From: Ptychomitrium polyphyllum
Lineage: Eukaryota
NCBI GenBank assembly: GCA_973851085.1
Contig: OZ316775.1
Location: forward strand, 18,848,001-18,912,000
Length of the DNA: 64,000 nucleotides
Reading direction: 5' to 3'
Part shown: piece after piece, positions 15,268-58,448 of the stretch
Layout of the letters: the number at the start of each line of letters is the position of its first letter
Position numbering within the stretch: the stretch's first letter is position 1
The notes under the pieces: generated by a model
Told to the model about the DNA's origin: nothing
Databases searched by the model: none
The model's input: only the letters and a program-made list of their open reading frames with translations
Position numbers and translations under genes: made by a program

Positions 15268-18200
15268 ATGGCGAAATTGAGTCGAGGTCAGAGAACTGGA
15301 GCTGGTACAGTAGCGTTGCTGGTGCTGGCCGCGTTGTCTCTCATGCTCATGGTCATGTTGGTGCTGGGCTTGGTAGCCGTGCCAACGGGACGGCGAGCTT
15401 CGATTGAAGCCGGAGCTATGGTGGAACTGAAGCTGCCCACACACAGGTATGTCTAAGTTTTTAAGGATCTATAGACGAATTCCCGCTTTCGATTACGGTT
15501 GCGGATATTCAAAGCAGCAGGAGCTGCATAGGGTTTAATCGTCAATTCGCTGGGGTTCGGTTTTCGAGAGCTCGGGTGCATTCCGAAACCCAATTCTGTG
15601 TCACCTCTTGGGTTTCTGGATACGGGTAGAAATCGAGGGGCACTTGCTGCGAGTTAGCAGAGCTCAGTCTTTCTGACGTAGCCTGAATACATAAGGACGC
15701 TAAGGTGATAGCTTTAGCCCGATTTCGGGCAGAGTTCGCCTTTTCTGGAGTTTGTGCGTAGTGACCTGATCTTCGTCTTGGATATCCTAATCGCGGAATG
15801 CATCCGATTACATCGTAATCTTGCTCTGCAATACTCGGAATCCACGAGAGCTTCGAACACTTGATTATATGGCGGTACTTTTGGGACGTATTTTAGGGTT
15901 AATCTTTAGATTAATCATAGTTGATTCGAGATTGAGTCTCAACTGCGGTTGTGTTAGAGAATTTATCAAAGCTGCGGGTGGTTGATTTGGTAATTGATTG
16001 GAATAAACGTATCTGCTCAAGTGCTTCGGATCGTGCAAGGCCGTCAAAAATGGATACGTGAGAGTCAATAAGAGTAGTAGATAATCAATGTGATGTTTTG
16101 ATTTGCTGACACAGTATGGTTACTCCAATTACACGATAATTATCATTTGTTGGAGCGTGAGTCGCTCTCATCGTCTGTTAATCCCTGAACCGAAGCGTAT
16201 ATTTGCGTAGTTGGTTTTAACTTCACCTAGTAGCATGTTGTAACAAAAGCTTGCACCTGAAAAGGAGCTATTCAAACTCATATTTAGAGTAATGGGCTCT
16301 ATGACGTTTTCCCGAGCGTCTGTTTCTGGTCGCAGGCATAGGGAGGACAACGCCTTGACTCCTTGGCTTGAAGTCCTATCTTGGGAGCCCAGGGGTTTCT
16401 TGTATCACCACTTTCTGGTGAGTCTTGTTTACAATTCATGCTCTGTTATCATGCATGTGAAACCCTAGTTTATTTGGATAGTCATACGTCCTGATAATGT
16501 GTATTTCCGACACAGACACGGGAGTCTGTACTGATGAGGTGCTCTAATAAACACTCCCCTGCGATCTACATCTGAGTTAGAGCTTGTAATGGGAACATGT
16601 GATGATGTTCAGTGACATTAGAAGAAGAATAAGAATAAATGGATCGCTGGTGCCGATTACTCGTAGATGTATCAAGTGATCTAAGTCGAGACTGGTGTAT
16701 TGGGAACAGGCACAAGAGGAATGCAAGCATCTGATTGAGGCAGCGAGGCCAAGCTTGGTGAAGTCAACGGTTGTGGATAGTGCTACTGGAAAGAGCAAAG
16801 ACAGCAGGTGCGTGCTAATGGAGCTCTTTCTCAATGTTGCAGTCTGTAAGTGGTTGATCCCGCCAGCTTTTCCAGTTCAGCTGTGATTACACTTTTGGTC
16901 TCCATTGGCTCCACAGGTGGATCCTCATGTATGTGTAGTGAATCTTAGGTTGTCTCAACGTTTCGTGCATCACATGGCGACTGCGCAATGTCCAGGTTTT
17001 CATAGCCATGCTTTGACTCGGTGCTTATGATACTGCAGAGTACGCACAAGTTCAGGAACATTTTTGATGCGTGGTCAAGACCATGTGATTAAGAGGATCG
17101 AGAAACGAATAGCTGATTTCACATTCATACCCGTTGGTGTGTATGATCCACCCTTGCTTTCAGTGCTGAGTTTATGTAGGTGGTATGCTAGTCGGATGAG
17201 GTTTTGATGTTTCTTCCGGTGGCAAGAATTTGTGCATGTTGATGCGTTCTCGATGTGATTGGTTTGGCGCTGGTAGTCCACCATGGAAAACCGTGCCACG
17301 CTTACGGGTTTTATTTCACTTTTCATTCTGCACCTGGCATGGATTGGTACAGCCCCTGCTCAGGAGCGTGCTAGCGTGCTTTGTGCGCCATCCTGTTCAG
17401 TGCAGTCACGGCGTGTTGTTTTTTGGACGCAGAACAAGGTGAAGGTTTACAAGTTCTGCAGTACAAAGAGAGTGAAAAGTACGAGGCTCACTATGACTAC
17501 TTTCACGACGCGTTGAACACCAAGAACGGTGGCCAACGAATTGCTACTGCACTGATGTATCTGTGAGTCTTCCGCTCTGTTGATCCCCTCACCACACGAC
17601 TTGCGCTGCACTTGTTTCCCGTGTATGCAGCGGAGCAGGCTTGTACAGCCTGCGTCGACGATCAGCAATCCTACATCACCTGTTAGCTCCCAGTGAAGAG
17701 AGAATGACAGTCTGGCATGATTGAGGTGTAGGTGAAACTACTTTCGGCTGGAAAAGTGTACGTCTGCAATCACATCGGTCTCACTGATGAGTCCTGACGT
17801 TTTCATGACGTGGGCAGAGCTCAAATGTTGAGGAGGGGGGAGAAACGGTTTTCCCAGCTTCGAAGGTGAATGCCAGTGAGGTTCCCGATTGGAATCAGCG
17901 ATCAGAATGCGCGAAGGCTGGCGTTTCCGTGCGACCGCGTACGGGAGATGCCTTGCTGTTCTGGAGCATGAAGCCAGATGCCACTGTAGATCCTACGAGC
18001 TTGCATGGTAGGCTTCCGTTTCGGCCTGGGTTTGCAGTGGAAAACTCGTCGTGCAGTCTCTGATCGGCTAGGGTTTGGAAGAGAGCCACGCTCTTTTCGC
18101 TGCCCATATACTTCGGTCGTCAAGAACTTAGAGGAGTCACATGTCTGGGTTGAATGCGCGTCCTGTTTCGCATTCCCTTATCCCCTCTTGAAACTCGACA

Positions 18201-18339
18201 GGCTCCTTGTGTTGGGACCGAAAGGCTGGTTTACTAAAATGGTGGGGTGTGCTTTCGTTGGGCAGGCGGCTGCCCTGTGATTAGAGGCACCAAATGGTCT
18301 GCCACAAAGTGGTTGCACGTTGAGATGTACGCAGTGTGA
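15268..18339 (+). CDS. P4H: Prolyl 4-hydroxylase (type II membrane 2OG-Fe(II) dioxygenase); 7 exons, 282 aa
   Basis: Exons 15268-15446, 16336-16417, 16710-16807, 17039-17136, 17433-17562, 17820-18007, 18266-18339 (849 nt). N-terminal TM helix; EVLSWEPR, RTSSGTF, EGLQVLQY..YEAHYDYF, GGQRIATALMYL, GGETVFP, SLHGGCPV..GTKWSATKW. Exon 6 needs a GAG acceptor to stay in frame. Confidence 0.92.
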
Positions 18340-21300
18340 AGGCGATCCAGGAAGCCTTGTTCAGGTATCAATGCTTCGTTTGTTGCCACCTGTTTCTGAA
18401 CAGTGAACTCCCCCACGGAGTTCAGTTTCACGGTGGGCAACGTGGTTGTGTAGGAGGGTCGTCGTGAATGTCATGAACCGTACAGCACACGGCTCTGAAG
18501 CCTGAAGTAGTTCGTGTTAAGAACCGATGACTTGGGGTCCTTTCCGTGAGCTGAAAACGCTTACATTCATCAATGACGGCGTACCGGTGACTTGACATCA
18601 TATTCTTCCTGTTCGCACTGACTCACCGAAATCCACACTGCGTGAGTGCAGGCAGATGGAGAGTCCGGTACTGGCGGAGACGGAGTGCTCTAGTAGACCG
18701 TTGGGAGAATACAAACATGTTTGCCAGTTCTGTTGGCCGTGGCACACGGAGAGGTGATCGAGGGTGGTGAGTGCACCTCATACTGCAGAGAATTGAGACG
18801 ACGAGAACACCCAAGCGGACTAGTTATAATCCGGTTTCTCCAAAGCAACTGTAGTGGCTAGTAAATAGGGCAAACTTCACGTTCTGGGACCTGATCAAGG
18901 TTCCAGTGCTGTGAGATTTGATGTTCATGAGTACGTCGTGTATGTGAAACAGTGTGGTGCACACTATTGTTCCAATCCAGGCTACAGTGGAATTCCAGTG
19001 ACGCACAATTTGCTCCAATTCTGAAAGAGAGTGCAATAAACACTAGAATTGTGATGTGACTAGTCGGCTGAGGCTGAAAACTTTGTCCATTCCACATCTG
19101 ATAAGCGCAACGAAGGTGAATGTGAACATCCACAGCACCTAGAGTTACTCCGAATGACGCGTCCAGGAAAGAATGAGGGTGGGCCGTGTTGTACTGCAGC
19201 CGCGGGACTCCGTGGCAGGGACGGCCCTGCCCGGGGCATCTCCCGGCGCATCTCCTCGTATTTTATGTCTGCATGCACACATGGGGGTCCGCGTGTTGGA
19301 TGCTGGGCGGACACCGCGTTCGAGCTTGACCTGGGCGGCCTCTTACCATTCGCGCTCCCGACTTGCCTGCATTGTGTGGGGCTTCCTGGAGGCAGAGCCC
19401 ACGGCTCATGTGGCTCGCAAGCGACGTCGGTCATTGGCAGTTTGTGTTATTGGCTGGGATGTTCCCACTCCTGGCGTGGTCGCCCGTCGCAGCCATCGCA
19501 GAGCTCCGTCCCTGCTTGTCGCTGGTCGCCCCGAGGCGCTAGTTCGTGGCCATCTTCTCTTTCGTGCGCGGTTTTCAGCATCCTGCGGAGGGCCGTGGGG
19601 GAGAGTGCTGCGCCTCTTCCCCATGGGTGTCGGCGCGTGGATGTTGATGTGAAGCGGAGCTGAGGAAACCAGGGCGTTTGGTGGACGCTTCGGCTGGTGG
19701 CCGGCGCTAGTGCAGGTGGGTCGGTTGGACTGCGCTTGTTGGTTGTGGTTGTGGAGTGACAGTACCCGTTGACAGCTCTGTGGTTTGGTGATGGCTATTG
19801 CGGCGAGCAACGTTTTGGGGAGGAGAGAGGTGCAGTGAGGGGAGGTGCGTCTTGGGAGCTGATAGGTCTTGAGGCGGAGGATGAGAGGAGAGGAGCGGAG
19901 TGGGGTATTGTGCGTGGGAGTGTTCGCCACGGGCGCCATACCGTCGCGGAGGTTGTATGCTGGGGTGGGGTGGAATGCGAGCGTCGTTTGCTGGTGCAAG
20001 GTTTCGCAAGTCTTAGTGGTTGCGTGCTACAGTAGGCCGTTCCATTTGTACTGTGCTGTTGACCTCTTTCTAGTCGATTCAGTGGATGATAGTTGATAGA
20101 TTAGTGGAGCCCTATTTGGAGCTTCTTTGATGTAGATCCGGGTTGTTACAGCGTTGAAGTTTGCAATGAGCGTGCTGGCATTGTTGACAAATGTGCGGAC
20201 GGCGTGGTGAATGAAATACCTGGGAGATTGTTGATAGGTCTCTGTGGTGTGGTGACGGAAGGAAGGCTGGGATTTCAAGTATCATTTGAGCAGGCAAGAG
20301 GAGGAATTTCGTGTACTTCCCATCAGGTACCTTCGTGCGAGAGATCTCTGTTTGATCACAACGTCGGTCTAGAGTGCTAGTGGAGGCAAGCTGCTTGTCC
20401 ATCTTTCTGCACACCATTTGGGTAGGTGGTTGTCACTGCTTAATTGTGGGGAGCTTCATTGTGGTTGTGGGTCGTGATTGATTTGGCACGTATGTTGATT
20501 ACGGGAGAGTTGATGATATCATTGGCAGCCGTAGAGGTTGTCATGGCAGATCCAGTCTTCACTCCTGCTGTAGTAGGGACAGCCGTAAATATGTTCGTCA
20601 ACGAGGTGATCAATGCAGCCAAAGGTGCCTACAGACATAGAGAGAAGTGCAGGCTTCTCCTGGAGAGTGCGAACAAGCTCCAACCACACATTGACGGAGC
20701 ATGTGAACATTCAGCCGGTTGGGAGAAGGCTCAGAGTGATGCGTTGCACGAAATCAAAGGTATTATGGAGGAAGCAAGAAGCTTTGGCACAAGAGGTGTA
20801 GAAGAATCAAAGCGCGAGGGGAGGAAGAGAGCGGTGCTTTTCTGGCGGTGGGGGAAGCTGCCAGCCGAGCTAGCGGCTATCATTCGCCGGATCGAAAAGG
20901 CAATGGGTATTGTTGTTTTCTGTGCTGCGGTTGAATGCCTGAAGGGCGCCAATGCTGCAAAGAAAGCAAGATGGCCAGACTTTGTAGTGCAACCGATCCC
21001 AGCGGAGATCGTGGGGGTGGATGTTCCGTTCAACAAACTGAAGGCAGCCATTCTAGAGAGCCACACAAAAGATGCGGCCAGCCACCTTGGGTTGCACGGG
21101 AGAGGTGGAGCTGGGAAAACGTTGGTGGCAAAGATGTTGCATAATGATGGAGACATCAAAGGGAAGTACGGAGCTGATCTTGTGAGGTGGATCAGCGTGG
21201 GACTGGATGCAAGAGTTCGTGATGTGTACAAAACAATGGCAACATTCTTAGGAGATGCAAGGTTTGAACAGAGCTACATTCATCGGAGCTTAGAAGATCA

Positions 21301-22805
21301 ACGTTCTTTCTTGATGGATGCATTCAGAGAGAAGAAGGTATTGTTGGTTTTGGACGATGTGTGGCAGGAAGGAGGCGAACAAAATCATGCCATGATGTAT
21401 TGGCTGAACATTATAACGGCCCCAGGATCTGTAACCTTGATCACAACACGCAACGTTGTAGTGCTGTCAGAGGTTTATGCTGAAGCAGAGGTCGTACTGT
21501 CTCTGTCGGAAGATGACAGTTGGAAATTGTTCTGCATTCATGCATTTGACAAGGGCACACTACCTGAGACAGTTCCAAAGGACTTGGCAAAAGAAGTATG
21601 TGAAGAGTGTGGACGGTTACCCTTGGCATTGGAAGTTGTGGGTAGCACAATGAGGGACAAGGTGAAGAAGGAAGAATGGAGTTATGCGTTGCATGGTTTG
21701 AAGCAATCCAAAGCAATATTAGGTTCCAAAGTAGACAGTGAAGTTTTTGGTCGCTTGCGGTGGAGTTACGACATGTTGGAGGGGGACGTGTTGAAGACAT
21801 GTTTCTTGTACTTTGCAGCATTTCCGGAAGACTATGAGATTGAAGTGAGCAAGTTAGTCCAGATGTGGATCTCAGAGGGATTGGTTGGTGCGGAAGATGA
21901 GGGAAAGGCCCACTTGGCAGTTCTTGAGAAGCGGTCTTTGATTGATTTGCGTCGTGGTGGAACACATGCGCAAGTGCATGACATTTTGCGAGGCCTTGCG
22001 CTCATGATCATTGCCAAAGCTGAAGTAGGCCAGAGTGGATACAATAGTTTCTTTGCATCAGGAAAAGTGTTGAAATCACTTCCACCAGGGAAGTCGGTAG
22101 AGGCCATCAAAAGAATGTCATTGATCAACAACGGCATCCCTCAAGGCTTGGACACCCTTCGAGCAGCTAACCTTCAAGTGTGCTTGTTTTCGGGGCTCAA
22201 TGGATCCGTAGATGAAGTGTTGAGTTTCTTCTCCAATTTGAGAATGACGAATTTGAAGTATTTGGACCTCTCACATACTAACTTAAACTTTCAAGGGGAG
22301 TTTTTACATTTTTGTGAATTGAGATTTCTTACGCACTTGGACCTATCATGGTGTAAATCCTTGAGGCAACTTCCTAAGCAAATTGGGGAGATGAAGGCTC
22401 TCACAAACTTGTACTTAAATGGGTGTTCATCCTTGCAGCAACTTCCAGAGCAAATTGGGGAGATGAAGGCTCTTGCGAACTTGTACTTAAATGGGTGTTT
22501 ATCCTTGCAACAACTTCCTGTGCAGATTGGGGAGTTGAAGGCTCTTACGAACTTGGACCTAGATGGATGTTCATCCTTGCAGCAACTTCCTGCGCAAATT
22601 GGGGAGTTGAAGGCTCTTACAGACTTGGTCCTATATGGTTGTTCATCCTTGCAGCAACTTCCAAAGCAAATTGGGGAGTTGAAGGCTCTTACAAACTTAG
22701 ACCTAAATAGGTGTTCATCCTTGCAGCAACTTCCAGAGCAAATTGGGGAGTTGAAGGCTCTTACATTATTGGACCTATTTGGATGTTCATCCTTGCAGCA
22801 ACTTC
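16560..22805 (+). repeat. Left arm of 6246-bp inverted duplication (partner 52203-58448)
   Basis: Position x maps to 75008-x. All ORF-track translations in the two arms are identical mirror images. Identity breaks at 16559/58449 and 22806/52202. Confidence 0.97.
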
Positions 22806-23056
22806 TAGAGCAAATTGGGGAGTTGAAGGCTGTTACGTACTTTAATTTTTATGGTTGTTCATCCTTGCTGCAACTTCCAGAGCAGATTGGAGAGTTGAAG
22901 GCTCTTGCAAAGTTGTACCTAAATGGGCGTTCATCCTTGCAGCAACTACCAGAGCAAATTGGGGAGTTGAAGGCTCTTATGTACTTGGACCTATATGGGT
23001 GTTCATCTTTACAGCAACTTCCAGAACAAATTGGACGGTTGAAGGCTCTTACGTAA
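20543..23056 (+). CDS. NLR immune receptor copy A (CC-type N-terminus, NB-ARC, ~10 regular LRRs, ends at a premature-looking stop)
   Basis: Single exon from MADPVFTPAVVG. P-loop GRGGAGKT, kinase-2 LLVLDDVW, RNBS-B GSVTLITTR, GRLPLAL, RNBS-D CFLYFAAFPED, VHD. 24-aa LRRs from 22328. TAA at 23054 falls inside repeat 11, and degenerate LRR sequence continues to ~23184. Confidence 0.93.
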   Translation: MADPVFTPAVVGTAVNMFVNEVINAAKGAYRHREKCRLLLESANKLQPHIDGACEHSAGWEKAQSDALHEIKGIMEEARSFGTRGVEESKREGRKRAVLFWRWGKLPAELAAIIRRIEKAMGIVVFCAAVECLKGANAAKKARWPDFVVQPIPAEIVGVDVPFNKLKAAILESHTKDAASHLGLHGRGGAGKTLVAKMLHNDGDIKGKYGADLVRWISVGLDARVRDVYKTMATFLGDARFEQSYIHRSLEDQRSFLMDAFREKKVLLVLDDVWQEGGEQNHAMMYWLNIITAPGSVTLITTRNVVVLSEVYAEAEVVLSLSEDDSWKLFCIHAFDKGTLPETVPKDLAKEVCEECGRLPLALEVVGSTMRDKVKKEEWSYALHGLKQSKAILGSKVDSEVFGRLRWSYDMLEGDVLKTCFLYFAAFPEDYEIEVSKLVQMWISEGLVGAEDEGKAHLAVLEKRSLIDLRRGGTHAQVHDILRGLALMIIAKAEVGQSGYNSFFASGKVLKSLPPGKSVEAIKRMSLINNGIPQGLDTLRAANLQVCLFSGLNGSVDEVLSFFSNLRMTNLKYLDLSHTNLNFQGEFLHFCELRFLTHLDLSWCKSLRQLPKQIGEMKALTNLYLNGCSSLQQLPEQIGEMKALANLYLNGCLSLQQLPVQIGELKALTNLDLDGCSSLQQLPAQIGELKALTDLVLYGCSSLQQLPKQIGELKALTNLDLNRCSSLQQLPEQIGELKALTLLDLFGCSSLQQLLEQIGELKAVTYFNFYGCSSLLQLPEQIGELKALAKLYLNGRSSLQQLPEQIGELKALMYLDLYGCSSLQQLPEQIGRLKALT

Positions 23057-23749
23057 TTGAATCTACATGGATGTTCATCCTTACAGCAACTTCCAGAGCA
23101 AGTATAGAATTAAAGAGTATTGTAATTTTTGATGTAAAGAAGTGTACATCTTTGAAGTTGCTTCTAAAGATTATTAGTATATAGAAATATTCACAATTGT
23201 GTATGAAATCAATTGTAGCATGTGTAAAGATGGTTGTAGGTGCAAACTCTATAATATATTAAGAAGAGTTGAAATAGAACTAATGGTTTATAAATAAAAG
23301 CAGAGGAATAGTGAAAAGTCAAAGTGGCCATATTTGAAGCTAAAGAATTTTTTTTGATAAATAATACTATGACACATCTATTATTTTATAAATAAACAAG
23401 CTTCTGATCTGATAACATCTAAAATTGTATGTAATATCATTGTATTTCATTTGAAAATGATCTATTGGATTCATAAGTAGTACACCACGATTTTAGTTAT
23501 TTATAACATTGTTGTTGGTAAAACTTGTCCAAATTCCAAATGAAATAGAAACTTTCACTTGTTAAGGGATCAACTATCAACTCGTCAAGGACTTTGTAAC
23601 ATCCTTAATATGAAGCCGAATTGATATTGAAATTACTTTGTAATCAATAGCACTTAGAATTAAGCTAGCCGTAGCAACTTAAATTAGCTCAATTGACAAA
23701 TTTGAATTCTAGTTCAATTACATGTAAAGAAAAGTTGTTCTTTGAGACA

Positions 23750-41951: not shown

Positions 41952-42185
41952 TGTCGCAATCTTTGCAATGCACCTTAACAAACATCATGAATGCCAACCT
42001 TGTACACCTCTACATGCACATGATTAGCTCCTATTTCTACTCTCCAAATTCAAGGCTTAGATTCCAATTTTTCTTACTCATTTTCCTAAAAACACCTAAT
42101 TGGTCAATAGCCAACAATTAAATGTGGACTTTTATTCATATATAAGGCCTCATTTGGTGTTACTTCTATTCTACAAGACCTAATT
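41952..42185 (-). mobile_element. Old solo LTR, 3' part (continuation of 25741-26678)
   Basis: On the minus strand it reads AATTAGGTCTTGTAGAATAGAAGTAACACC...GATTGCGACA, resuming at the LTR position where 26678 stops. Followed by ATGTT (41951-41947). Confidence 0.88.
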
Positions 42186-48100: not shown

Positions 48101-49696
48101 TGGTACTTCGAAGTGAAGTGTTCACTCAAAATCTCTTTACAATTGACCCAAGACAAAGTCGCTACCAACTCCGGCTCTTGTTGCTTTTTATTTGTCCACC
48201 ATTGAAGAGCATGGTCTTTCAAAAAGGTCACCGCAATTGAAACTTTTTCCACCTCTTCCGGCCTTTGAACATCATAATAGTTGTCCATTTGCAAAAGAAA
48301 CTCCTTCACCTTCCTGGCCTTACCCAGCCCAGAAAAAGTGCTTGGCATGTTCACCTTGGCCAACTTCTTGGTCGAAGATGAGGACCTGGAACCTTGTGCC
48401 ATCAAATGCTCAATCAACCTCTCTTGACGAGTCCTTTCTTCTTTGCCACGCTTGAGTTCTTGGTTCACACCGTCCATGAACTCGAGCATTTTCATGCAAA
48501 AATTCAAGTCAGGGTCCTGACTTTCTAAGCCCTCAGGTGGCTCAGGAATCCTAACTCCTGAGTACTCTCCACCCTCTAACGCTTTGTCTTGTTGAGTTTC
48601 CTCAACTTCCACGGTGACTCCGATGTCATTCCCTCGCTCATTGGAAGCAAAGGATGGAGCCTCATTAATCGGATCAGGGTCTTTGTTTACCCTCGTGCAT
48701 GGTCGTTTAGAGGCCCCGGGCTCACCGCCATCACCGGCTTTCTTCTTACCCATCGCCTCCTTGCAACGTAGCACTTAGATACTCAAAGCCTGCTCTGATA
48801 CCAAATGTCGCAACCCTTGTAATGCACCTTAGCAAGCATTACGCGCGTCAACCCTGTACACCTCCACATGCACATGGTTAACCCCCATTCTCACTTTTCA
48901 AGTCTTTCTACCATTTCTCTTAGGACACCCAATTTATTAGTAGCCAATGGTTAGGTGCGGACTTCCATTCATGTCCAAGGCCTCCTTGGTGTTACTCCCA
49001 TTCCACACGGCCTAACCGCACTTAGTAGTGTCTCCTCACCACCACTCATGATGCCCATGTGATCCTAAGATCACCCCGGGTCATCATAATGCTGGCGTGA
49101 AGACACCACCCCAACTTAGTGGTAACAAGCATACTCTTTTAAACGTGCTAGCTCCCTCTGTGAAACCGGCCGTCCACCGGCTCACAATGGTGTGGGAGTC
49201 CCCGTGGTGAAGCCCCAACATTAGCTCCACCAACCGGGACTCATTCTTGGTCTCTACCGGAACACTAGTGGAGGTTTGGGAGAGGCGTATCTCCCACAAG
49301 GTTTGGGAGAGGCGTATCTCCCAAGGTTTGGGACTCCCGGGGAGTCGCTCCCTGGACTATCCCATCTCAGCACAGTCACTGTATAGGGCTGCCACACTTC
49401 AGAATAGCCCCTTGGCAACCTCAACTTTGGGGTGCCATAACTTTTAGCTCCCATGTCCGATTTGGATAATTCATAGCATTCTAAAATCAGCTCTTCGTGA
49501 ATCCTTCAATGTCCACGATTTATCTCTCGTGGCCCTCGGTCTACATGGACAAGGATGTTTCTCCCTCTAGAAGTCTTTCCTATGTTAGGCCAACTCGGTT
49601 CTCCTCACTATCGGCACCTCAAGTCCCGGACGTCACTTAAGAATCCCTCTTGTGCCCTTAGATTTGTGGGCACTCCTGAAAGAGAGGTGCGCGACA
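42186..49696 (-). mobile_element. Defective Ty3/gypsy chromovirus, copy 2 (inverted relative to copy 1)
   Basis: Position x maps to ~76628-x. 3' LTR 42186-43330; 5' LTR 48806-49696 (891 bp, internal deletion, diverged outer part); PBS next to 48805. Same stops and frameshift as copy 1, with a few SNPs in gag. Confidence 0.97.
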
Positions 49697-52600
49697 GATG
49701 AATATCCGTTTAAACTCAAGGAAGTAAGAGCCTTTAACTCCACAATTTGCTCTGGAAGTTGCTGCAAGGATGAACACCCATCTAGGTCTAAGTTCGTAAG
49801 AGCCTTCAACTCCCGAATTTGCTCTGGAAGTTGCTGCAAGGATGAACACCCATAGAGATTCAAGTTCGTAAGAGCCTTCAATTTCCCAATTTGCTCTGGA
49901 AGTTGCTGCAAGGATGAACAACCATATAGGATCAAATCTGTAAGAGCCTTCAACTCCCCAGTTTGCCTTGGAAGTTGCTGCAAGGATGAACACCCATATA
50001 GATTCAAGTACGTAAGAGCCTTCAACTCCCCAATTTGCTCTGGAAGTTGCTGCAAGGATGAACACCCATTTAAGTACAAGTACGTAAGAGCCTTCAGCTC
50101 CCCAATTTGCTTTGGAAGTTGTTGCAAGGATGAACACCCAGTTAAGTACAAATTTGTAAGAGCCTTCAACTCTCCAATTTGCTCTGGAAGTTGCTGCAAG
50201 GATGAACACCCATTTAAGCACAAGTTCATAAGAGCCTTCAACTCTCCAACCTGTGCTGGAAGTTGCTGCAAGGATGAACACTCGTATAGGTTCAAGTTTG
50301 TAAGAGCCTTCAACTCCCCAATTTGCTCTGGAAGTTGCTGCAAGGATAAACATCCATCTAGGTTCAAGTTTATAAGAGCCTTCAACTCCCTAATTTGTAC
50401 TGGAAGTTGCTGTAAGGATGAACACCCAGTTAAGTACAAGTTTGATAGAGCCTTCAATCCCCCAATTTGCTCTGGAAGTTGCTGCAAGGATGAACACTCA
50501 TAAAGATTCAAGTTCGTTAGAGCCTCCAACTCTCTAATTTGCTCTGGAAGTTGCTGCAAGGATAAACACCCATCTAGGTTCAAGTTTGTAAGAGCCTTCA
50601 ACCCCCCAATTTGCTTTGGAAGTTGCTGCAAGGACGAACACCCATCTAGGTCCAAGTTTGTAAGAGCCTTCAACTCCCCAATTTTCTCTGGAAGTTGCTG
50701 CAAAGATGAACACCCATTTAAGTATAAGTTTGTAACAACCTTCAACTCTCCAATTTGCTCTGGAAGTTGCTGCAAAGATGAACACCCAGTTAAGTACAAG
50801 TTTGTAAGAGCCTTCAATTCCCCAATTTGCTCTGGAAGTTGTTGCAAGGATAAACACCCATCTAGGTTCAAGTTTATAAGAACCTTCAATTCCCCAATTT
50901 GCTCTGGAAGTTGCTGCAAGGATGAACACCCATATAGTTTCAAATACGTAAGAGCCTTCAACCTCCCAATTTGCTCTGGAAGTTGCTGCAAGGATAAACA
51001 CCCATATAGATTCAAGTACGTAAGAGCCTTCAACCCCCCAATTTTCTCTGGAAGTTGCTGCAAGGATAAACACCCATATAGATTCAAATACGTAAGAGCC
51101 TTCAACTCCCCAATTTGCTCTGGAAGTTGCTGCAAGGATGAACACCCATATAGTTTCAAGTACGTAAGAGCCTTCAACTCTCCAATTTGCTGTGGAAGTT
51201 GCTCCAAGGATGAACACCCAGTTAAGTACAAGTTTGTAAGAGCCTTCAACCCCCCAATTTGCTTTGGAAGTTGCTGTAAGGATGAACACCCATAAAGATT
51301 CAAGTTTGTAAGAGCCTTTAGCTGTCCAATTTGCTCTGGAAGTTGCTGCAAGGACGAACACCCATTTAAGTGCAACTTTGCAAGAACCTTCAACCCCCCA
51401 ATTTGCTCTGGAAGTTGTTGCAAGGATGAACACCCATATAGATTCAAGTACGTAAGAGCCTTCAACTCCCCAATTTGCTCTGGAAGTTGCTGCAAGGATG
51501 AACATCCATTTAAGTACAAGTTTGTAAAAGCCTTCAACTCCCCAATTTGCTCTAAAAGTTGTTGCAATGATGAGCATCCAGTTAAGTACAAGTTTGTAAG
51601 AGCCTTCAACTCCCCAATTTGCTCTGGAAGTTGCTGTAAGGATGAACACTCATATAAATTCAAGTTCGTAAGAGCCTTCAACTCCCCAATTTGCTTGGGA
51701 AGTTGCTGCAAGGATGAACACCTTGTCAAATTCAAGTTCGTAAGAGCCTTCAACTCCCCAATTTGCTTTGGAAGTTGCTGTAAGGATGAACACCCAGTTA
51801 AGTACAAGTTTGTAAGAGCCTTCAACCCCCCAATTTGCTCTGGAAGTTGCTGCAAAGATGAACATCCATCTAGATTCAAGTTTGTAAGAGCCTTCAACTC
51901 CCCAATTTGCTCTGGAAGTTGTTGCAAGGATGAACACCCATTTAAGTGCAACTTTGAAAGAGCCTTCAACCCTCCAATTTGCTTTGGAAGTTGCTGCAAG
52001 GATGAACACCCATAAAGATTCAAGTTTGTCAAAGCCTTCAACTCTCCAATTTGCTCTGGTAGTTGCTGCAAGGATGAACATCCATTTAAGTACAAGTTTG
52101 TAAAAGCCTTCAACTCTCCAATTTGCTTTGGAAGTTGCTGCAAGGATGAACACCCAGTTAAGTACAAGTTTGTAAGAGCCTTCAACTTCCCAATTTGCTT
52201 TGGAAGTTGCTGCAAGGATGAACATCCAAATAGGTCCAATAATGTAAGAGCCTTCAACTCCCCAATTTGCTCTGGAAGTTGCTGCAAGGATGAACACCTA
52301 TTTAGGTCTAAGTTTGTAAGAGCCTTCAACTCCCCAATTTGCTTTGGAAGTTGCTGCAAGGATGAACAACCATATAGGACCAAGTCTGTAAGAGCCTTCA
52401 ACTCCCCAATTTGCGCAGGAAGTTGCTGCAAGGATGAACATCCATCTAGGTCCAAGTTCGTAAGAGCCTTCAACTCCCCAATCTGCACAGGAAGTTGTTG
52501 CAAGGATAAACACCCATTTAAGTACAAGTTCGCAAGAGCCTTCATCTCCCCAATTTGCTCTGGAAGTTGCTGCAAGGATGAACACCCATTTAAGTACAAG

Positions 52601-54465
52601 TTTGTGAGAGCCTTCATCTCCCCAATTTGCTTAGGAAGTTGCCTCAAGGATTTACACCATGATAGGTCCAAGTGCGTAAGAAATCTCAATTCACAAAAAT
52701 GTAAAAACTCCCCTTGAAAGTTTAAGTTAGTATGTGAGAGGTCCAAATACTTCAAATTCGTCATTCTCAAATTGGAGAAGAAACTCAACACTTCATCTAC
52801 GGATCCATTGAGCCCCGAAAACAAGCACACTTGAAGGTTAGCTGCTCGAAGGGTGTCCAAGCCTTGAGGGATGCCGTTGTTGATCAATGACATTCTTTTG
52901 ATGGCCTCTACCGACTTCCCTGGTGGAAGTGATTTCAACACTTTTCCTGATGCAAAGAAACTATTGTATCCACTCTGGCCTACTTCAGCTTTGGCAATGA
53001 TCATGAGCGCAAGGCCTCGCAAAATGTCATGCACTTGCGCATGTGTTCCACCACGACGCAAATCAATCAAAGACCGCTTCTCAAGAACTGCCAAGTGGGC
53101 CTTTCCCTCATCTTCCGCACCAACCAATCCCTCTGAGATCCACATCTGGACTAACTTGCTCACTTCAATCTCATAGTCTTCCGGAAATGCTGCAAAGTAC
53201 AAGAAACATGTCTTCAACACGTCCCCCTCCAACATGTCGTAACTCCACCGCAAGCGACCAAAAACTTCACTGTCTACTTTGGAACCTAATATTGCTTTGG
53301 ATTGCTTCAAACCATGCAACGCATAACTCCATTCTTCCTTCTTCACCTTGTCCCTCATTGTGCTACCCACAACTTCCAATGCCAAGGGTAACCGTCCACA
53401 CTCTTCACATACTTCTTTTGCCAAGTCCTTTGGAACTGTCTCAGGTAGTGTGCCCTTGTCAAATGCATGAATGCAGAACAATTTCCAACTGTCATCTTCC
53501 GACAGAGACAGTACGACCTCTGCTTCAGCATAAACCTCTGACAGCACTACAACGTTGCGTGTTGTGATCAAGGTTACAGATCCTGGGGCCGTTATAATGT
53601 TCAGCCAATACATCATGGCATGATTTTGTTCGCCTCCTTCCTGCCACACATCGTCCAAAACCAACAATACCTTCTTCTCTCTGAATGCATCCATCAAGAA
53701 AGAACGTTGATCTTCTAAGCTCCGATGAATGTAGCTCTGTTCAAACCTTGCATCTCCTAAGAATGTTGCCATTGTTTTGTACACATCACGAACTCTTGCA
53801 TCCAGTCCCACGCTGATCCACCTCACAAGATCAGCTCCGTACTTCCCTTTGATGTCTCCATCATTATGCAACATCTTTGCCACCAACGTTTTCCCAGCTC
53901 CACCTCTCCCGTGCAACCCAAGGTGGCTGGCCGCATCTTTTGTGTGGCTCTCTAGAATGGCTGCCTTCAGTTTGTTGAACGGAACATCCACCCCCACGAT
54001 CTCCGCTGGGATCGGTTGCACTACAAAGTCTGGCCATCTTGCTTTCTTTGCAGCATTGGCGCCCTTCAGGCATTCAACCGCAGCACAGAAAACAACAATA
54101 CCCATTGCCTTTTCGATCCGGCGAATGATAGCCGCTAGCTCGGCTGGCAGCTTCCCCCACCGCCAGAAAAGCACCGCTCTCTTCCTCCCCTCGCGCTTTG
54201 ATTCTTCTACACCTCTTGTGCCAAAGCTTCTTGCTTCCTCCATAATACCTTTGATTTCGTGCAACGCATCACTCTGAGCCTTCTCCCAACCGGCTGAATG
54301 TTCACATGCTCCGTCAATGTGTGGTTGGAGCTTGTTCGCACTCTCCAGGAGAAGCCTGCACTTCTCTCTATGTCTGTAGGCACCTTTGGCTGCATTGATC
54401 ACCTCGTTGACGAACATATTTACGGCTGTCCCTACTACAGCAGGAGTGAAGACTGGATCTGCCAT
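49633..54465 (-). CDS. NLR immune receptor copy B (CC-type, NB-ARC, 41 complete 24-aa LRRs; last 20 aa and stop encoded by the LTR)
   Basis: Uninterrupted ORF, identical to copy A through LRR7. Reads ...LNGYSS|VAHLSFRSAHKSKGTRGILK* across the LTR boundary at 49697/49696. Confidence 0.95.
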   Translation of the reverse strand: MADPVFTPAVVGTAVNMFVNEVINAAKGAYRHREKCRLLLESANKLQPHIDGACEHSAGWEKAQSDALHEIKGIMEEARSFGTRGVEESKREGRKRAVLFWRWGKLPAELAAIIRRIEKAMGIVVFCAAVECLKGANAAKKARWPDFVVQPIPAEIVGVDVPFNKLKAAILESHTKDAASHLGLHGRGGAGKTLVAKMLHNDGDIKGKYGADLVRWISVGLDARVRDVYKTMATFLGDARFEQSYIHRSLEDQRSFLMDAFREKKVLLVLDDVWQEGGEQNHAMMYWLNIITAPGSVTLITTRNVVVLSEVYAEAEVVLSLSEDDSWKLFCIHAFDKGTLPETVPKDLAKEVCEECGRLPLALEVVGSTMRDKVKKEEWSYALHGLKQSKAILGSKVDSEVFGRLRWSYDMLEGDVLKTCFLYFAAFPEDYEIEVSKLVQMWISEGLVGAEDEGKAHLAVLEKRSLIDLRRGGTHAQVHDILRGLALMIIAKAEVGQSGYNSFFASGKVLKSLPPGKSVEAIKRMSLINNGIPQGLDTLRAANLQVCLFSGLNGSVDEVLSFFSNLRMTNLKYLDLSHTNLNFQGEFLHFCELRFLTHLDLSWCKSLRQLPKQIGEMKALTNLYLNGCSSLQQLPEQIGEMKALANLYLNGCLSLQQLPVQIGELKALTNLDLDGCSSLQQLPAQIGELKALTDLVLYGCSSLQQLPKQIGELKALTNLDLNRCSSLQQLPEQIGELKALTLLDLFGCSSLQQLPKQIGKLKALTNLYLTGCSSLQQLPKQIGELKAFTNLYLNGCSSLQQLPEQIGELKALTNLNLYGCSSLQQLPKQIGGLKALSKLHLNGCSSLQQLPEQIGELKALTNLNLDGCSSLQQLPEQIGGLKALTNLYLTGCSSLQQLPKQIGELKALTNLNLTRCSSLQQLPKQIGELKALTNLNLYECSSLQQLPEQIGELKALTNLYLTGCSSLQQLLEQIGELKAFTNLYLNGCSSLQQLPEQIGELKALTYLNLYGCSSLQQLPEQIGGLKVLAKLHLNGCSSLQQLPEQIGQLKALTNLNLYGCSSLQQLPKQIGGLKALTNLYLTGCSSLEQLPQQIGELKALTYLKLYGCSSLQQLPEQIGELKALTYLNLYGCLSLQQLPEKIGGLKALTYLNLYGCLSLQQLPEQIGRLKALTYLKLYGCSSLQQLPEQIGELKVLINLNLDGCLSLQQLPEQIGELKALTNLYLTGCSSLQQLPEQIGELKVVTNLYLNGCSSLQQLPEKIGELKALTNLDLDGCSSLQQLPKQIGGLKALTNLNLDGCLSLQQLPEQIRELEALTNLNLYECSSLQQLPEQIGGLKALSNLYLTGCSSLQQLPVQIRELKALINLNLDGCLSLQQLPEQIGELKALTNLNLYECSSLQQLPAQVGELKALMNLCLNGCSSLQQLPEQIGELKALTNLYLTGCSSLQQLPKQIGELKALTYLYLNGCSSLQQLPEQIGELKALTYLNLYGCSSLQQLPRQTGELKALTDLILYGCSSLQQLPEQIGKLKALTNLNLYGCSSLQQLPEQIRELKALTNLDLDGCSSLQQLPEQIVELKALTSLSLNGYSSVAHLSFRSAHKSKGTRGILK
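49697..52680 (-). repeat. 72-bp tandem array encoding LRRs (41 full units + 32 bp)
   Basis: Unit consensus LTNLxLxGCSSLQQLPEQIGELKA; 2984 bp = 41x72+32, with no indel. Confidence 0.97.
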
Positions 54466-57400
54466 GACAACCTCTACGGCTGCCAATGATATCATCAACT
54501 CTCCCGTAATCAACATACGTGCCAAATCAATCACGACCCACAACCACAATGAAGCTCCCCACAATTAAGCAGTGACAACCACCTACCCAAATGGTGTGCA
54601 GAAAGATGGACAAGCAGCTTGCCTCCACTAGCACTCTAGACCGACGTTGTGATCAAACAGAGATCTCTCGCACGAAGGTACCTGATGGGAAGTACACGAA
54701 ATTCCTCCTCTTGCCTGCTCAAATGATACTTGAAATCCCAGCCTTCCTTCCGTCACCACACCACAGAGACCTATCAACAATCTCCCAGGTATTTCATTCA
54801 CCACGCCGTCCGCACATTTGTCAACAATGCCAGCACGCTCATTGCAAACTTCAACGCTGTAACAACCCGGATCTACATCAAAGAAGCTCCAAATAGGGCT
54901 CCACTAATCTATCAACTATCATCCACTGAATCGACTAGAAAGAGGTCAACAGCACAGTACAAATGGAACGGCCTACTGTAGCACGCAACCACTAAGACTT
55001 GCGAAACCTTGCACCAGCAAACGACGCTCGCATTCCACCCCACCCCAGCATACAACCTCCGCGACGGTATGGCGCCCGTGGCGAACACTCCCACGCACAA
55101 TACCCCACTCCGCTCCTCTCCTCTCATCCTCCGCCTCAAGACCTATCAGCTCCCAAGACGCACCTCCCCTCACTGCACCTCTCTCCTCCCCAAAACGTTG
55201 CTCGCCGCAATAGCCATCACCAAACCACAGAGCTGTCAACGGGTACTGTCACTCCACAACCACAACCAACAAGCGCAGTCCAACCGACCCACCTGCACTA
55301 GCGCCGGCCACCAGCCGAAGCGTCCACCAAACGCCCTGGTTTCCTCAGCTCCGCTTCACATCAACATCCACGCGCCGACACCCATGGGGAAGAGGCGCAG
55401 CACTCTCCCCCACGGCCCTCCGCAGGATGCTGAAAACCGCGCACGAAAGAGAAGATGGCCACGAACTAGCGCCTCGGGGCGACCAGCGACAAGCAGGGAC
55501 GGAGCTCTGCGATGGCTGCGACGGGCGACCACGCCAGGAGTGGGAACATCCCAGCCAATAACACAAACTGCCAATGACCGACGTCGCTTGCGAGCCACAT
55601 GAGCCGTGGGCTCTGCCTCCAGGAAGCCCCACACAATGCAGGCAAGTCGGGAGCGCGAATGGTAAGAGGCCGCCCAGGTCAAGCTCGAACGCGGTGTCCG
55701 CCCAGCATCCAACACGCGGACCCCCATGTGTGCATGCAGACATAAAATACGAGGAGATGCGCCGGGAGATGCCCCGGGCAGGGCCGTCCCTGCCACGGAG
55801 TCCCGCGGCTGCAGTACAACACGGCCCACCCTCATTCTTTCCTGGACGCGTCATTCGGAGTAACTCTAGGTGCTGTGGATGTTCACATTCACCTTCGTTG
55901 CGCTTATCAGATGTGGAATGGACAAAGTTTTCAGCCTCAGCCGACTAGTCACATCACAATTCTAGTGTTTATTGCACTCTCTTTCAGAATTGGAGCAAAT
56001 TGTGCGTCACTGGAATTCCACTGTAGCCTGGATTGGAACAATAGTGTGCACCACACTGTTTCACATACACGACGTACTCATGAACATCAAATCTCACAGC
56101 ACTGGAACCTTGATCAGGTCCCAGAACGTGAAGTTTGCCCTATTTACTAGCCACTACAGTTGCTTTGGAGAAACCGGATTATAACTAGTCCGCTTGGGTG
56201 TTCTCGTCGTCTCAATTCTCTGCAGTATGAGGTGCACTCACCACCCTCGATCACCTCTCCGTGTGCCACGGCCAACAGAACTGGCAAACATGTTTGTATT
56301 CTCCCAACGGTCTACTAGAGCACTCCGTCTCCGCCAGTACCGGACTCTCCATCTGCCTGCACTCACGCAGTGTGGATTTCGGTGAGTCAGTGCGAACAGG
56401 AAGAATATGATGTCAAGTCACCGGTACGCCGTCATTGATGAATGTAAGCGTTTTCAGCTCACGGAAAGGACCCCAAGTCATCGGTTCTTAACACGAACTA
56501 CTTCAGGCTTCAGAGCCGTGTGCTGTACGGTTCATGACATTCACGACGACCCTCCTACACAACCACGTTGCCCACCGTGAAACTGAACTCCGTGGGGGAG
56601 TTCACTGTTCAGAAACAGGTGGCAACAAACGAAGCATTGATACCTGAACAAGGCTTCCTGGATCGCCTTCACACTGCGTACATCTCAACGTGCAACCACT
56701 TTGTGGCAGACCATTTGGTGCCTCTAATCACAGGGCAGCCGCCTGCCCAACGAAAGCACACCCCACCATTTTAGTAAACCAGCCTTTCGGTCCCAACACA
56801 AGGAGCCTGTCGAGTTTCAAGAGGGGATAAGGGAATGCGAAACAGGACGCGCATTCAACCCAGACATGTGACTCCTCTAAGTTCTTGACGACCGAAGTAT
56901 ATGGGCAGCGAAAAGAGCGTGGCTCTCTTCCAAACCCTAGCCGATCAGAGACTGCACGACGAGTTTTCCACTGCAAACCCAGGCCGAAACGGAAGCCTAC
57001 CATGCAAGCTCGTAGGATCTACAGTGGCATCTGGCTTCATGCTCCAGAACAGCAAGGCATCTCCCGTACGCGGTCGCACGGAAACGCCAGCCTTCGCGCA
57101 TTCTGATCGCTGATTCCAATCGGGAACCTCACTGGCATTCACCTTCGAAGCTGGGAAAACCGTTTCTCCCCCCTCCTCAACATTTGAGCTCTGCCCACGT
57201 CATGAAAACGTCAGGACTCATCAGTGAGACCGATGTGATTGCAGACGTACACTTTTCCAGCCGAAAGTAGTTTCACCTACACCTCAATCATGCCAGACTG
57301 TCATTCTCTCTTCACTGGGAGCTAACAGGTGATGTAGGATTGCTGATCGTCGACGCAGGCTGTACAAGCCTGCTCCGCTGCATACACGGGAAACAAGTGC

Positions 57401-58448
57401 AGCGCAAGTCGTGTGGTGAGGGGATCAACAGAGCGGAAGACTCACAGATACATCAGTGCAGTAGCAATTCGTTGGCCACCGTTCTTGGTGTTCAACGCGT
57501 CGTGAAAGTAGTCATAGTGAGCCTCGTACTTTTCACTCTCTTTGTACTGCAGAACTTGTAAACCTTCACCTTGTTCTGCGTCCAAAAAACAACACGCCGT
57601 GACTGCACTGAACAGGATGGCGCACAAAGCACGCTAGCACGCTCCTGAGCAGGGGCTGTACCAATCCATGCCAGGTGCAGAATGAAAAGTGAAATAAAAC
57701 CCGTAAGCGTGGCACGGTTTTCCATGGTGGACTACCAGCGCCAAACCAATCACATCGAGAACGCATCAACATGCACAAATTCTTGCCACCGGAAGAAACA
57801 TCAAAACCTCATCCGACTAGCATACCACCTACATAAACTCAGCACTGAAAGCAAGGGTGGATCATACACACCAACGGGTATGAATGTGAAATCAGCTATT
57901 CGTTTCTCGATCCTCTTAATCACATGGTCTTGACCACGCATCAAAAATGTTCCTGAACTTGTGCGTACTCTGCAGTATCATAAGCACCGAGTCAAAGCAT
58001 GGCTATGAAAACCTGGACATTGCGCAGTCGCCATGTGATGCACGAAACGTTGAGACAACCTAAGATTCACTACACATACATGAGGATCCACCTGTGGAGC
58101 CAATGGAGACCAAAAGTGTAATCACAGCTGAACTGGAAAAGCTGGCGGGATCAACCACTTACAGACTGCAACATTGAGAAAGAGCTCCATTAGCACGCAC
58201 CTGCTGTCTTTGCTCTTTCCAGTAGCACTATCCACAACCGTTGACTTCACCAAGCTTGGCCTCGCTGCCTCAATCAGATGCTTGCATTCCTCTTGTGCCT
58301 GTTCCCAATACACCAGTCTCGACTTAGATCACTTGATACATCTACGAGTAATCGGCACCAGCGATCCATTTATTCTTATTCTTCTTCTAATGTCACTGAA
58401 CATCATCACATGTTCCCATTACAAGCTCTAACTCAGATGTAGATCGCA
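52203..58448 (-). repeat. Right arm of 6246-bp inverted duplication
   Basis: Reverse complement of 16560-22805; outer junction ...AGATCGCA|AGAGACACTC joins TFIIIC-like coding sequence. Confidence 0.97.
56669..58298 (-). pseudogene. P4H: 5'-truncated duplicate of P4H (exons 3-7 only)
   Basis: Mirror of 16710-18339. The duplication starts inside intron 2, so the promoter, ATG and TM exon are missing. Confidence 0.92.

What the first reader, a model, noticed from the sequence alone, without database searches (positions are those of the whole stretch)
16560..58448. Nested ~42-kb inverted-repeat NLR locus: one shared receptor head, alternative LRR tails, candidate recombinational diversification system
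Seen: two nested inverted repeats (6.2-kb NLR/P4H arms and ~7.5-kb retroelement arms) around a spacer that has flipped. The NLR copies are identical in upstream region, CC, NB-ARC and LRR1-7, then switch abruptly to different tails (3 damaged repeats plus a stop, versus 34 more intact repeats). A third pool of the same 72-bp unit sits in the spacer. Inference: fold-back pairing lets out-of-register exchange or conversion between the inverted 72-bp arrays rewrite the ligand-binding tail while the signalling head stays constant. This resembles palindrome arm-to-arm conversion or cassette shuffling. Whether it is ongoing or functional cannot be seen from one haplotype.
Basis: partly seen in the sequence, partly recalled or inferred. 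Interest (0 to 1): 0.85.

Follow-up and report, generated by a model that had tools for sequence, protein, structure and literature searches.

The report
Mirrored moss immune genes, transposon-flipped spacer
In what is likely a moss, two mirror-image copies of an immune-receptor gene have an identical 6.2-kb front end, likely kept the same by gene conversion, while the 'third pool' of repeats is likely the cut-off end of the longer copy, moved by a transposon-bounded inversion, rather than a stock of spare parts for receptor shuffling.

Summary
The anatomy is real. The outer arms (16560-22805 / 58448-52203) match at 6246 of 6246 bases. Inside lie two inverted Ty3/gypsy copies around a 7.7-kb spacer. 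The inversion is shown three ways: two swapped target-site duplications and one old solo LTR split across both breakpoints. The 'third pool' continues the right array in register across target site TCATC, so it is that gene's amputated, decaying 3' end. Both NLRs are whole genes with their own identical promoters: 837 aa (10 LRRs) and 1610 aa (41 LRRs, stop codon lent by the LTR). A contig from another individual bridges the same outer breakpoint, yet its arm sequence differs from the window at 32 of 2153 bases. The duplication therefore looks old and the arms recently homogenised. The retroelement arms also hold a 4.4-kb identical tract (p 0.0003). Conversion stops in LRR 7; no repeat unit is shared between the tails or with the pool (longest exact match 35 nt). 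Best reading: an inverted NLR paralog pair under long-tract gene conversion, with a highly self-similar LRR array reshuffled within one gene. A cassette system is not supported.

The parts
15268..18100 (+). Prolyl 4-hydroxylase gene; its start codon and first exons lie left of the arm, so this is the native copy (3' end approximate)
16560..22805 (+). Left outer arm: P4H 3' part, NLR upstream region, N-terminal helical domain, NB-ARC, LRR units 1-6.6; identical to 52203-58448
   Evidence: 0 of 6246 mismatches
20543..23056 (+). NLR-L open reading frame, 837 aa, 10 LRR units, ends at TAA inside the array
22806..23105 (+). Private LRR tail of NLR-L (rest of unit 7, three units, one stop-bearing unit, then a frameshifted remnant)
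25741..26678 (+). 5' part (LTR positions about 1-932) of an old solo LTR, preceded by target site ATGTT and ending in AACTA
   Evidence: 68% identical to the young LTR
26679..34441 (+). Left Ty3/gypsy chromodomain retrotransposon (two 1144-bp LTRs; gag, protease, RT, RNase H, integrase, chromo; stops in the frames); its last ~60 bp carry 6 private changes (older B-type LTR end)
28901..33274 (+). 4.37-kb tract with no difference from its mirror 43354-47727, beside a 1.06-kb stretch with 7 differences
   Evidence: p = 0.0003 for so long a run
34442..35110 (+). 'Third pool': amputated, decaying 3' end of the NLR-R array; begins with target site TCATC in register with the last unit of NLR-R; stops in 2 of 6 whole units
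34442..42185 (.). Inverted spacer (7.7 kb): pool, NOT1 fragment, NAA30 first exon, 3' part of the old solo LTR
36653..37009 (-). Frame holding a fragment of the CCR4-NOT1 C-terminal domain
   Evidence: Pfam Not1, E 1e-12, profile positions 234-307 of 372
39380..39516 (-). First exon of an N-alpha-acetyltransferase 30 (NAA30/MAK3) gene; later GNAT motifs not found in the spacer
41952..42185 (-). 3' part (LTR positions about 935-1144) of the same old solo LTR, starting with AATTA and followed by ATGTT
42186..49696 (-). Right retrotransposon copy; 8 differences in 5475 internal bases from the left copy; its 5' LTR is a mosaic
49304..49696 (-). First 393 bp of an older LTR type (86% to the young LTR), preceded by TCATC; joined to the young type across a ~250-bp gap with short inverted copies of a local hairpin; supplies the stop codon of NLR-R
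49633..54465 (-). NLR-R open reading frame, 1610 aa, 41 whole LRR units, last 20 residues and TGA from the LTR
49697..52680 (-). 72-bp LRR array of NLR-R; units 87% identical to the commonest residue; variants shared in mosaic among units
52203..58448 (-). Right outer arm (derived position; P4H lacks its 5' part here)
58449..58455 (-). Last 7 bp of P4H-intron sequence before the breakpoint; TGT microhomology with GTF3C1 at 58453-58455
58456..62003 (-). 5' half of a GTF3C1 (TFIIIC subunit) gene, cut inside an exon at residue ~880 of ~1960 and carrying an internal deletion near 58667

Best explanation
Two complete, inverted copies of a CC/RPW8-like NLR gene have an identical 6.2-kb front end that was likely homogenised by long-tract gene conversion after an older duplication, while the longer copy's 41-unit LRR array was likely built by unequal exchange among its own units and lost its 3' end to an LTR insertion. 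Steps: (1) shown: the right arm is joined into a GTF3C1 exon at a 3-bp microhomology; inferred: an old inverted segmental duplication. (2) Shown: an LTR (type B, target site TCATC) sits in unit 42 of NLR-R and supplies its stop; the severed units have decayed. (3) Shown: a younger Ty3/gypsy (type A) sits inside an old solo LTR behind NLR-L, and the spacer between A and B is inverted. Inferred: recombination or template switching between A and B LTRs flipped it and copied A's interior to both breakpoints. (4) Inferred: later conversion tracts of 6.2 kb (heads) and 4.4 kb (retroelement arms) erased differences. The head tract stops where homology breaks (an indel at 16560, loss of register in LRR 7), so its net product would be a chimera of one head on two tails, as in ordinary NLR clusters. 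New binding surfaces would come mainly from reshuffling inside the long array, not from the spacer pool.
For: Swapped target sites AACTA/AATTA and TCATC/TCATC, and an old LTR split 1-932 | 935-1144 with ATGTT at both outer ends. Pool in register with the last right unit. Pool decay: stops in 2 of 6 units against 0 of 34 (Fisher p 0.019); greater distance from the commonest base (p 0.003); 2.4 private changes per unit against 0.32. B-type sequence only at the two outermost LTR ends; both elements share 5'-versus-3' LTR differences at several columns, which independent insertions would not. Sample S1 is another individual (all laid depth shows the other base at 55072, 55082 and 58188 in both runs). 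It has a 107-nt contig across the same breakpoint, with 35 letters on the arm side counted to 58455 and 5 substitutions plus 5 deleted bases. Its three longest arm contigs differ from the window at 32 of 2153 bases, which would predict about 93 arm differences where 0 are seen. Differences between the retroelement arms are clustered: a 4375-bp clean run, p 0.0003. Inside the right array 203 of 214 deviations are shared with another unit, 151 of 276 site pairs show four gametes, and framework codons are conserved (pN/pS 0.16).
Against: S1 is one sample (X1 = X2) seen only as short contigs, which may drop minority alleles, so the arm sequence of its junction-bearing copy is not phased. Only 28 letters of the bridging contig lie on the arm if the breakpoint is counted at 58448. 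The window's GTF3C1 side matches a different S1 contig (0 of 79 differences) better than S1's junction contig, which needs further exchange or a second origin of the junction. Contig depth hints at about 4-5 copies of the arm segment in S1 (the tool warns that depth is no copy number), so the donor need not be the opposite arm. No long reads and no RNA were available. Block duplications inside the right array were not above shuffles, and four gametes can arise by repeated mutation.
Confidence: 0.65

Rival explanations
1. A single very recent copying event (template switch or break repair) made the right arm from the left one; nothing recurrent is happening and the identity only reflects youth.
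For: 0 of 6246 differences; microhomology at the outer junction; the window's GTF3C1 fragment is identical over 79 bp to an S1 contig that may belong to an intact copy.
Against: The same breakpoint exists in S1 with 5 substitutions and a 5-bp loss beside it. The right copy keeps 7 bp of P4H intron like S1's native allele, where the left copy has about 47 bp of other sequence, so it was not copied from the present left flank. The two LRR tails are about 12% or more apart at the best register (30 of 242). A second clean tract lies in the retroelement arms.
Confidence: 0.16
2. Assembly artefact: the two arms are real but diverged, and consensus calling or polishing overwrote one with the other.
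For: Perfect identity including intergenic DNA; no reads of the source individual were available; no genome is held.
Against: The same assembly keeps 8 single-base differences between 5.5-kb retroelement copies next door. Both window copies keep alleles that about 99% of the family's contig depth in S1 lacks (for example 44313, 45266, 46836), so they were not polished to a family majority. The outer junction is seen in another sample.
Confidence: 0.1
3. One reading: a selected diversification device in which fold-back pairing lets the three arrays trade repeat units, rewriting the tail under a constant head.
For: Heads are homogenised; the inversion placed the pool in the same orientation as NLR-L, 11.3 kb downstream; units do not sort by array on a tree; one left-tail unit shares rare alleles with right units 11 and 19; repeat exchange between HIC NLR genes is reported in fungi (PMC13449251, abstract and passages).
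Against: No near-identical unit or long exact tract across arrays: 30-35 nt at most, against 86 and 61 nt within the right tail. The pool carries stops and private changes. The tree has 2 starred branches of 49 and no short cross-array pair beyond the tract end. The spacer holds only gene fragments and no recombinase-like frame was found among the frames scanned. Each gene has its own promoter.
Confidence: 0.09

Closest known systems
Type I (fast-evolving) plant NLR cluster genes, e.g. the Mi-1/Rpi-blb2 family; lettuce RGC2 (its ~40 LRRs are recalled, not checked)
   Same: Paralogs exchange sequence by gene conversion and unequal crossing-over, giving chimeric genes; pseudogenes are discussed as reservoirs (PMC3645687 and PMC4590265, passages).
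   Different: Here the tract is 6.2 kb, covers promoter and intergenic DNA, and homogenises the head while leaving the tails apart; PMC3645687 (passage) describes conversion as higher in LRRs than in the NBS. The host is likely a moss.
NLRs with high internal conservation (HIC) repeats, e.g. Podospora het-e/het-d (HNWD)
   Same: Near-identical sensor repeats with variation concentrated at a few exposed positions; association with transposons; unequal crossing-over proposed as the cause (PMC13449251, passages and section 12; PMC4986451, passages).
   Different: LRR instead of WD40; exchange between genes and length polymorphism are not shown here; dN/dS above 1 was not met by my crude test. HIC LRRs are common in this moss clade (80-89% unit identity in 4 of 13 relatives), but 41 units is the largest count among them (7-23 by the same pattern that finds 38 here).
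Palindromes with arm-to-arm gene conversion (mammalian Y/X; Salix purpurea W, whose 42.7-kb palindrome W.P1 also carries NB-ARC genes)
   Same: Inverted arms over 99% identical although old; differences from a relative shared by both arms is the test used in PMC7023750 (passages).
   Different: The arms here are short (6.2 and 7.1 kb), nested and separated by unlike tails; the inner pair is a retrotransposon; linkage to a sex chromosome is unknown.
Inversions bounded by inverted LTR retrotransposons (general knowledge)
   Same: Target-site duplications swapped between the two breakpoints.
   Different: One partner survives only as its outer ends, with the other element's interior on both sides and short inverted inserts at the junction, which points to template switching or later overwriting rather than a clean crossover (inference).

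Membership tests
Plant NLR (NB-ARC-LRR) | NB-ARC with P-loop, kinase-2, GLPL and MHD-like motifs, followed by LRRs | tested here: met
   Pfam NB-ARC E 2e-35 and winged helix; motifs GRGGAGKT, LLVLDDVW, RLPLA, VHD
RPW8-type (CC-R) NLR | N-terminal domain reaches the Pfam RPW8 cut-off or matches an RPW8/CC structure | tested here: inconclusive
   RPW8 12.9 bits against a cut-off of 30.4; 9 of 11 aligned relatives match RPW8 at E <= 0.1, and the same 9 match Rx_N; model is four long helices at pLDDT 60, no PDB match at E <= 0.001
HIC-repeat NLR | Repeats highly alike (Psim >= 0.7 or > 85% identity over 100 aa, as in PMC13449251 and PMC4986451) | tested here: met
   87% identity to the commonest residue over 40 units; mean pairwise 79.6%; T-REKS itself was not run
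HIC-repeat NLR | A few hypervariable positions under diversifying selection | tested here: inconclusive
   pN 0.27 on the exposed strand against 0.03 in the framework, but pN/pS 0.55 there; pairwise counts on recombining units are crude
HIC-repeat NLR | Repeat-number polymorphism among individuals | not testable with these tools
   Only short contigs of one other sample
HIC-repeat NLR | Repeat exchange between different genes | tested here: not met
   Beyond the head tract no shared unit; longest exact cross-array match 35 nt. Old exchange cannot be excluded.
Gene-converting palindrome | Inverted arms over 99% identical | tested here: met
   100% and 99.68%
Gene-converting palindrome | Duplication older than arm divergence implies; both arms share differences from a relative | tested here: met
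   Breakpoint shared with S1; 32 of 2153 differences to S1 against 0 of 6246 between arms. One sample, unphased.
Gene-converting palindrome | The donor is the opposite arm (intrachromatid or sister pairing) | not testable with these tools
   S1 appears to hold further copies; no genome held
Cassette-switching diversification system (VSG/VLR/vlsE-like; recalled) | One expression site plus silent donor cassettes kept intact | tested here: not met
   Two whole genes with identical promoters; the pool has stops and is a severed gene end
Cassette-switching diversification system (VSG/VLR/vlsE-like; recalled) | Somatic mosaicism of the expressed tail | not testable with these tools
   No reads of the source individual and no RNA holder listed
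Ty3/gypsy chromovirus-type LTR retrotransposon | LTRs TG...CA, PBS, gag-PR-RT-RH-IN order with chromodomain, 5-bp target site | tested here: met

The most novel reading that the evidence does not exclude
In a haploid-dominant moss, nested inverted repeats act as a self-recombining NLR palindrome: repeated multi-kilobase conversions and crossovers end at different LRR units, so one conserved head is re-grafted onto a 41-unit array, a 10-unit array or the stored spacer units, producing new receptor tails within clonal lineages without sex.
Probability: 0.12. Interest if true: 0.78.

Novelty: new variant of a known kind. Interest (0 to 1): 0.42.

Why it matters
How sensor repeats stay nearly identical is called unknown in PMC13449251 (passage). 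This locus offers an internal control: one array with its coding part (34 tail units, no stops, 0.3 private changes each) and its own severed end (stops, 2.4 private changes each) in the same chromosome. It also suggests that short inverted arms in a bryophyte are homogenised over kilobases, as in sex-chromosome palindromes, which would let a haploid plant repair or re-graft receptor heads without a homologue. My searches found no paper holding all of NLR, inverted repeat, gene conversion, palindrome and LRR, and three general reviews or surveys for the moss/NLR/conversion search; subscription journals were not searched. The parts are known; a programmed shuffling system is not shown.

Tried and rejected
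Whole genome: none held, so other copies could not be counted. Metagenome scan with the NLR head gave 31 loci of 152 pattern matches, all 25-42% identical in the best segment and too distant for synteny; not used. No RNA holder listed: no statement on expression. Synteny with Ceratodon by locus tag failed: the NAA30 search gave only unnamed short fragments and the GTF3C1 search listed no Ceratodon entry. Unit tree: 72 columns, 2 of 49 branches starred, no clustering by array; it says nothing firm on exchange (six left head units left out as exact duplicates). Higher-order blocks in the right array (for example units 8-13 against 16-21) looked plausible by eye but were not above shuffles (537 and 406 of 1000), and no lag stood out. 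The 3' flanks of NLR-L and of the pool share no alignable sequence beyond the units. Fold search of the N-terminal model gave no match at E <= 0.001. Pool distances were out of phase by one base and were redone. Spacer orientation cannot be read from short contigs because the switch points lie inside 7-kb repeats. Independent insertion of two sibling retrotransposons was rejected as the origin of the inner arms, because of shared 5'/3' LTR differences and B-type ends. Earlier findings: three look-ups, nothing returned. Runs X3-X5 hold small shares and were not used as evidence. No supplements were read.
Full report
Host and genes. The long ORF is an NB-ARC-LRR protein. Its best relatives are from the moss Ceratodon purpureus (57% over residues 34-640), then unnamed metagenome proteins and Sphagnum; the GTF3C1 fragment is 82% identical to a cluster that holds Physcomitrium patens. 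The host is therefore likely a moss (inference). The start MADPVFTPAV aligns with the Ceratodon start, giving NLR-L 20543-23056 (837 aa) and NLR-R 54465-49633 (1610 aa). The N-terminal domain is helical, below the RPW8 cut-off itself, while 9 of 11 aligned relatives match both RPW8 and Rx_N. I call it CC/RPW8-like; PMC11218826 (passages) describes a broad CC/RPW8 lineage and more than 315 NLRs in Ceratodon.

Outer arms. 16560-22805 and 58448-52203 agree at 6246 of 6246 bases; differences start 46 nt into LRR unit 7. P4H starts at 15268, outside the left arm, so the left position is native. On the right the arm abuts a GTF3C1 gene cut inside an exon at residue ~880 of ~1960; the rest is not in the window, and the fragment has its own internal deletion.

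The inversion. Three independent marks agree. AACTA precedes the left element and AATTA follows the right one. TCATC precedes the right element and follows the left one. An old solo LTR (68% to the young one) has positions 1-932 at 25741-26678 on the + strand and positions 935-1144 at 42185-41952 on the - strand, with ATGTT at both outer ends. The four-LTR alignment shows that the element in the NLR (type B) survives only as its first 393 bp (86% to type A) and its last ~60 bp (6 private changes). Everything between is type A. Both copies share 5'-versus-3' LTR differences at several columns, which sibling insertions would not show because each starts with identical LTRs (established retrotransposon biology). 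The B-to-A junction has a ~250-bp gap and short inverted copies of a local hairpin. I infer template switching between A's LTRs and B, or later overwriting; the two cannot be told apart here.

The third pool. TCATC falls at the same phase of the last right unit and of the pool's first bases, and the last right unit's first 27 nt are closest to a pool unit (4 differences). The pool is thus the right gene's former 3' end. It has decayed: stops in 2 of 6 units against 0 of 34 (p 0.019), larger distance from the commonest base (p 0.003; five units tested, the sixth left out as degenerate), and 2.4 private changes per unit against 0.32. NLR-R now ends 20 residues into the LTR. Many relatives also end abruptly in or just after a repeat.

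Exchange between arrays. Nearest right-tail unit: 9, 6, 9 changes for the three whole left-tail units; 10, 11, 10, 5, 9 for five pool units; median 4 within the right tail. Longest exact matches: left-right 34, left-pool 30, pool-right 35 nt, against 86 and 61 nt inside the right tail and 56 nt between head and right tail. The best register of the left tail on the right array still has 30 differences in 242. Some rare alleles are shared (one left unit with right units 11 and 19), which fits common ancestry or old exchange. The tree is unresolved. No recent transfer is visible beyond the head tract.

Inside the long array. 203 of 214 deviations from the commonest base recur in another unit, and 151 of 276 pairs of informative sites show all four gametes. 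Framework codons have pN/pS 0.16; the exposed strand has nine times more replacement variation but pN/pS 0.55. Units are 87% identical to the commonest residue. This is the HIC pattern of PMC13449251 (passages, section 12) and PMC4986451 (passages). It is a trait of the clade: 4 of 13 relatives have 80-89% unit identity, with 7-23 units where the same pattern counts 38 here. The Ceratodon match has the same length, 1245 aa, in both assemblies listed.

Is the identity youth, conversion or artefact? Runs X1 and X2 are one sample, S1, holding 0.69 and 0.64 of the words. It is another individual: at 55072, 55082 and 58188 all laid depth shows the other base in both runs. Laid on 58100-58800 (46 and 36 contigs, 8 listed per run), S1 shows loose ends for intact GTF3C1 at 58453 and 58455 and for native P4H intron at 58455, plus one 107-nt contig in each run that crosses the junction with 5 substitutions and 5 missing bases. 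The breakpoint is thus 58455/58456 with a TGT microhomology; the contig has 35 letters on the arm side by that count, 28 if counted to 58448. An X2 contig also carries the GTF3C1 deletion with no mismatch (58608-58696; 29 letters on its short side). S1's three longest arm contigs differ from the window at 32 of 2153 bases; at that rate about 93 differences are expected between arms that split earlier, and 0 are seen. This is the test used for the willow palindrome (PMC7023750, passages). The right copy also keeps 7 bp of intron where the left copy has other sequence, so the identical tract stops at an indel. The retroelement arms show the same pattern: 11 differences in 7022 bp (B-type ends left out), 7 of them in 1.06 kb, and a clean run of 4375 bp (p 0.0003). 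That patchiness could also come from a 1-kb conversion by a third family member. Against collapse: the assembly keeps those single-base differences, and both copies keep alleles rare in S1's family. Limits: one sample, unphased contigs; the window's GTF3C1 side is closer to a different S1 contig than to S1's junction contig; depth hints at 4-5 copies of the segment in S1, although the tool warns against reading it as copy number.

Mechanism and verdict. Shown: identical heads, swapped target sites, severed pool, LTR-supplied stop, mosaic units, shared breakpoint. Inferred: old inverted duplication, template-switch inversion, recurrent long-tract conversion (0.65). The direction is probably right to left, since head units resemble right-array units more than left-tail units (mean 10.1 against 12.3 differences), but this is weak. 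Because each gene has the same promoter and head, flipping changes nothing about which tail is made. Conversion between NLR paralogs that yields chimeras is ordinary (PMC3645687, PMC4590265, passages), and NB-ARC genes already occur in a converting plant palindrome (PMC7023750, passages). What is unusual is the combination in a moss, the tract length, the 41-unit array and its built-in dead control. New variant of a known kind; interest 0.42.

Noticed in passing
window 36653-39516 and 55000-62003: The region is a patchwork of truncated housekeeping genes (GTF3C1 5' half, P4H 3' half, NOT1 fragment, NAA30 first exon) around one NLR; S1 contigs show several GTF3C1 and P4H variants here. It may be a repeatedly duplicated block or a gene-capturing element.
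   Followed up: partly
window 49633-49696: The last 20 residues and stop codon of the 1610-aa NLR come from an LTR; its 3' UTR and poly(A) signal would also be LTR-derived.
   Followed up: partly
window 49272-49333: A 27-bp tandem repeat at the B/A junction is made of inverted copies of a hairpin in the LTR, like a templated insertion from end-joining or template switching.
   Followed up: partly
window 16509-16559: About 47 bp in the left P4H intron have no counterpart in S1's native intron or in the right arm; the identical tract begins exactly at its edge.
   Followed up: partly
window 27707, 34326, 42302, 48922 (LTR column 1029): Both left LTRs have A and both right LTRs have T at one column, which suggests conversion between the two LTRs of one element after the duplication.
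   Followed up: no
window 4594-8899: A second, decayed Ty3/gypsy element (gag, RNase H and integrase pieces) with no nucleotide match to the young family in the self-comparison.
   Followed up: no
window 12017-14165: Lipoyl synthase gene on the - strand, head to head with P4H about 1.1 kb away.
   Followed up: no
window 4160-4277 and 63837-63954: A 118-bp inverted match at 87% far outside the described arms.
   Followed up: no
window 24104-24298: A short - strand frame that resembles the RNase H end of a copia-type element (recalled resemblance; no Pfam match).
   Followed up: no
proteins P0005, P0007, P0008, P0011: Related bryophyte-type NLRs also have 24-residue LRRs that are 80-89% identical to each other, so HIC-type LRR arrays look common in this clade.
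   Followed up: partly
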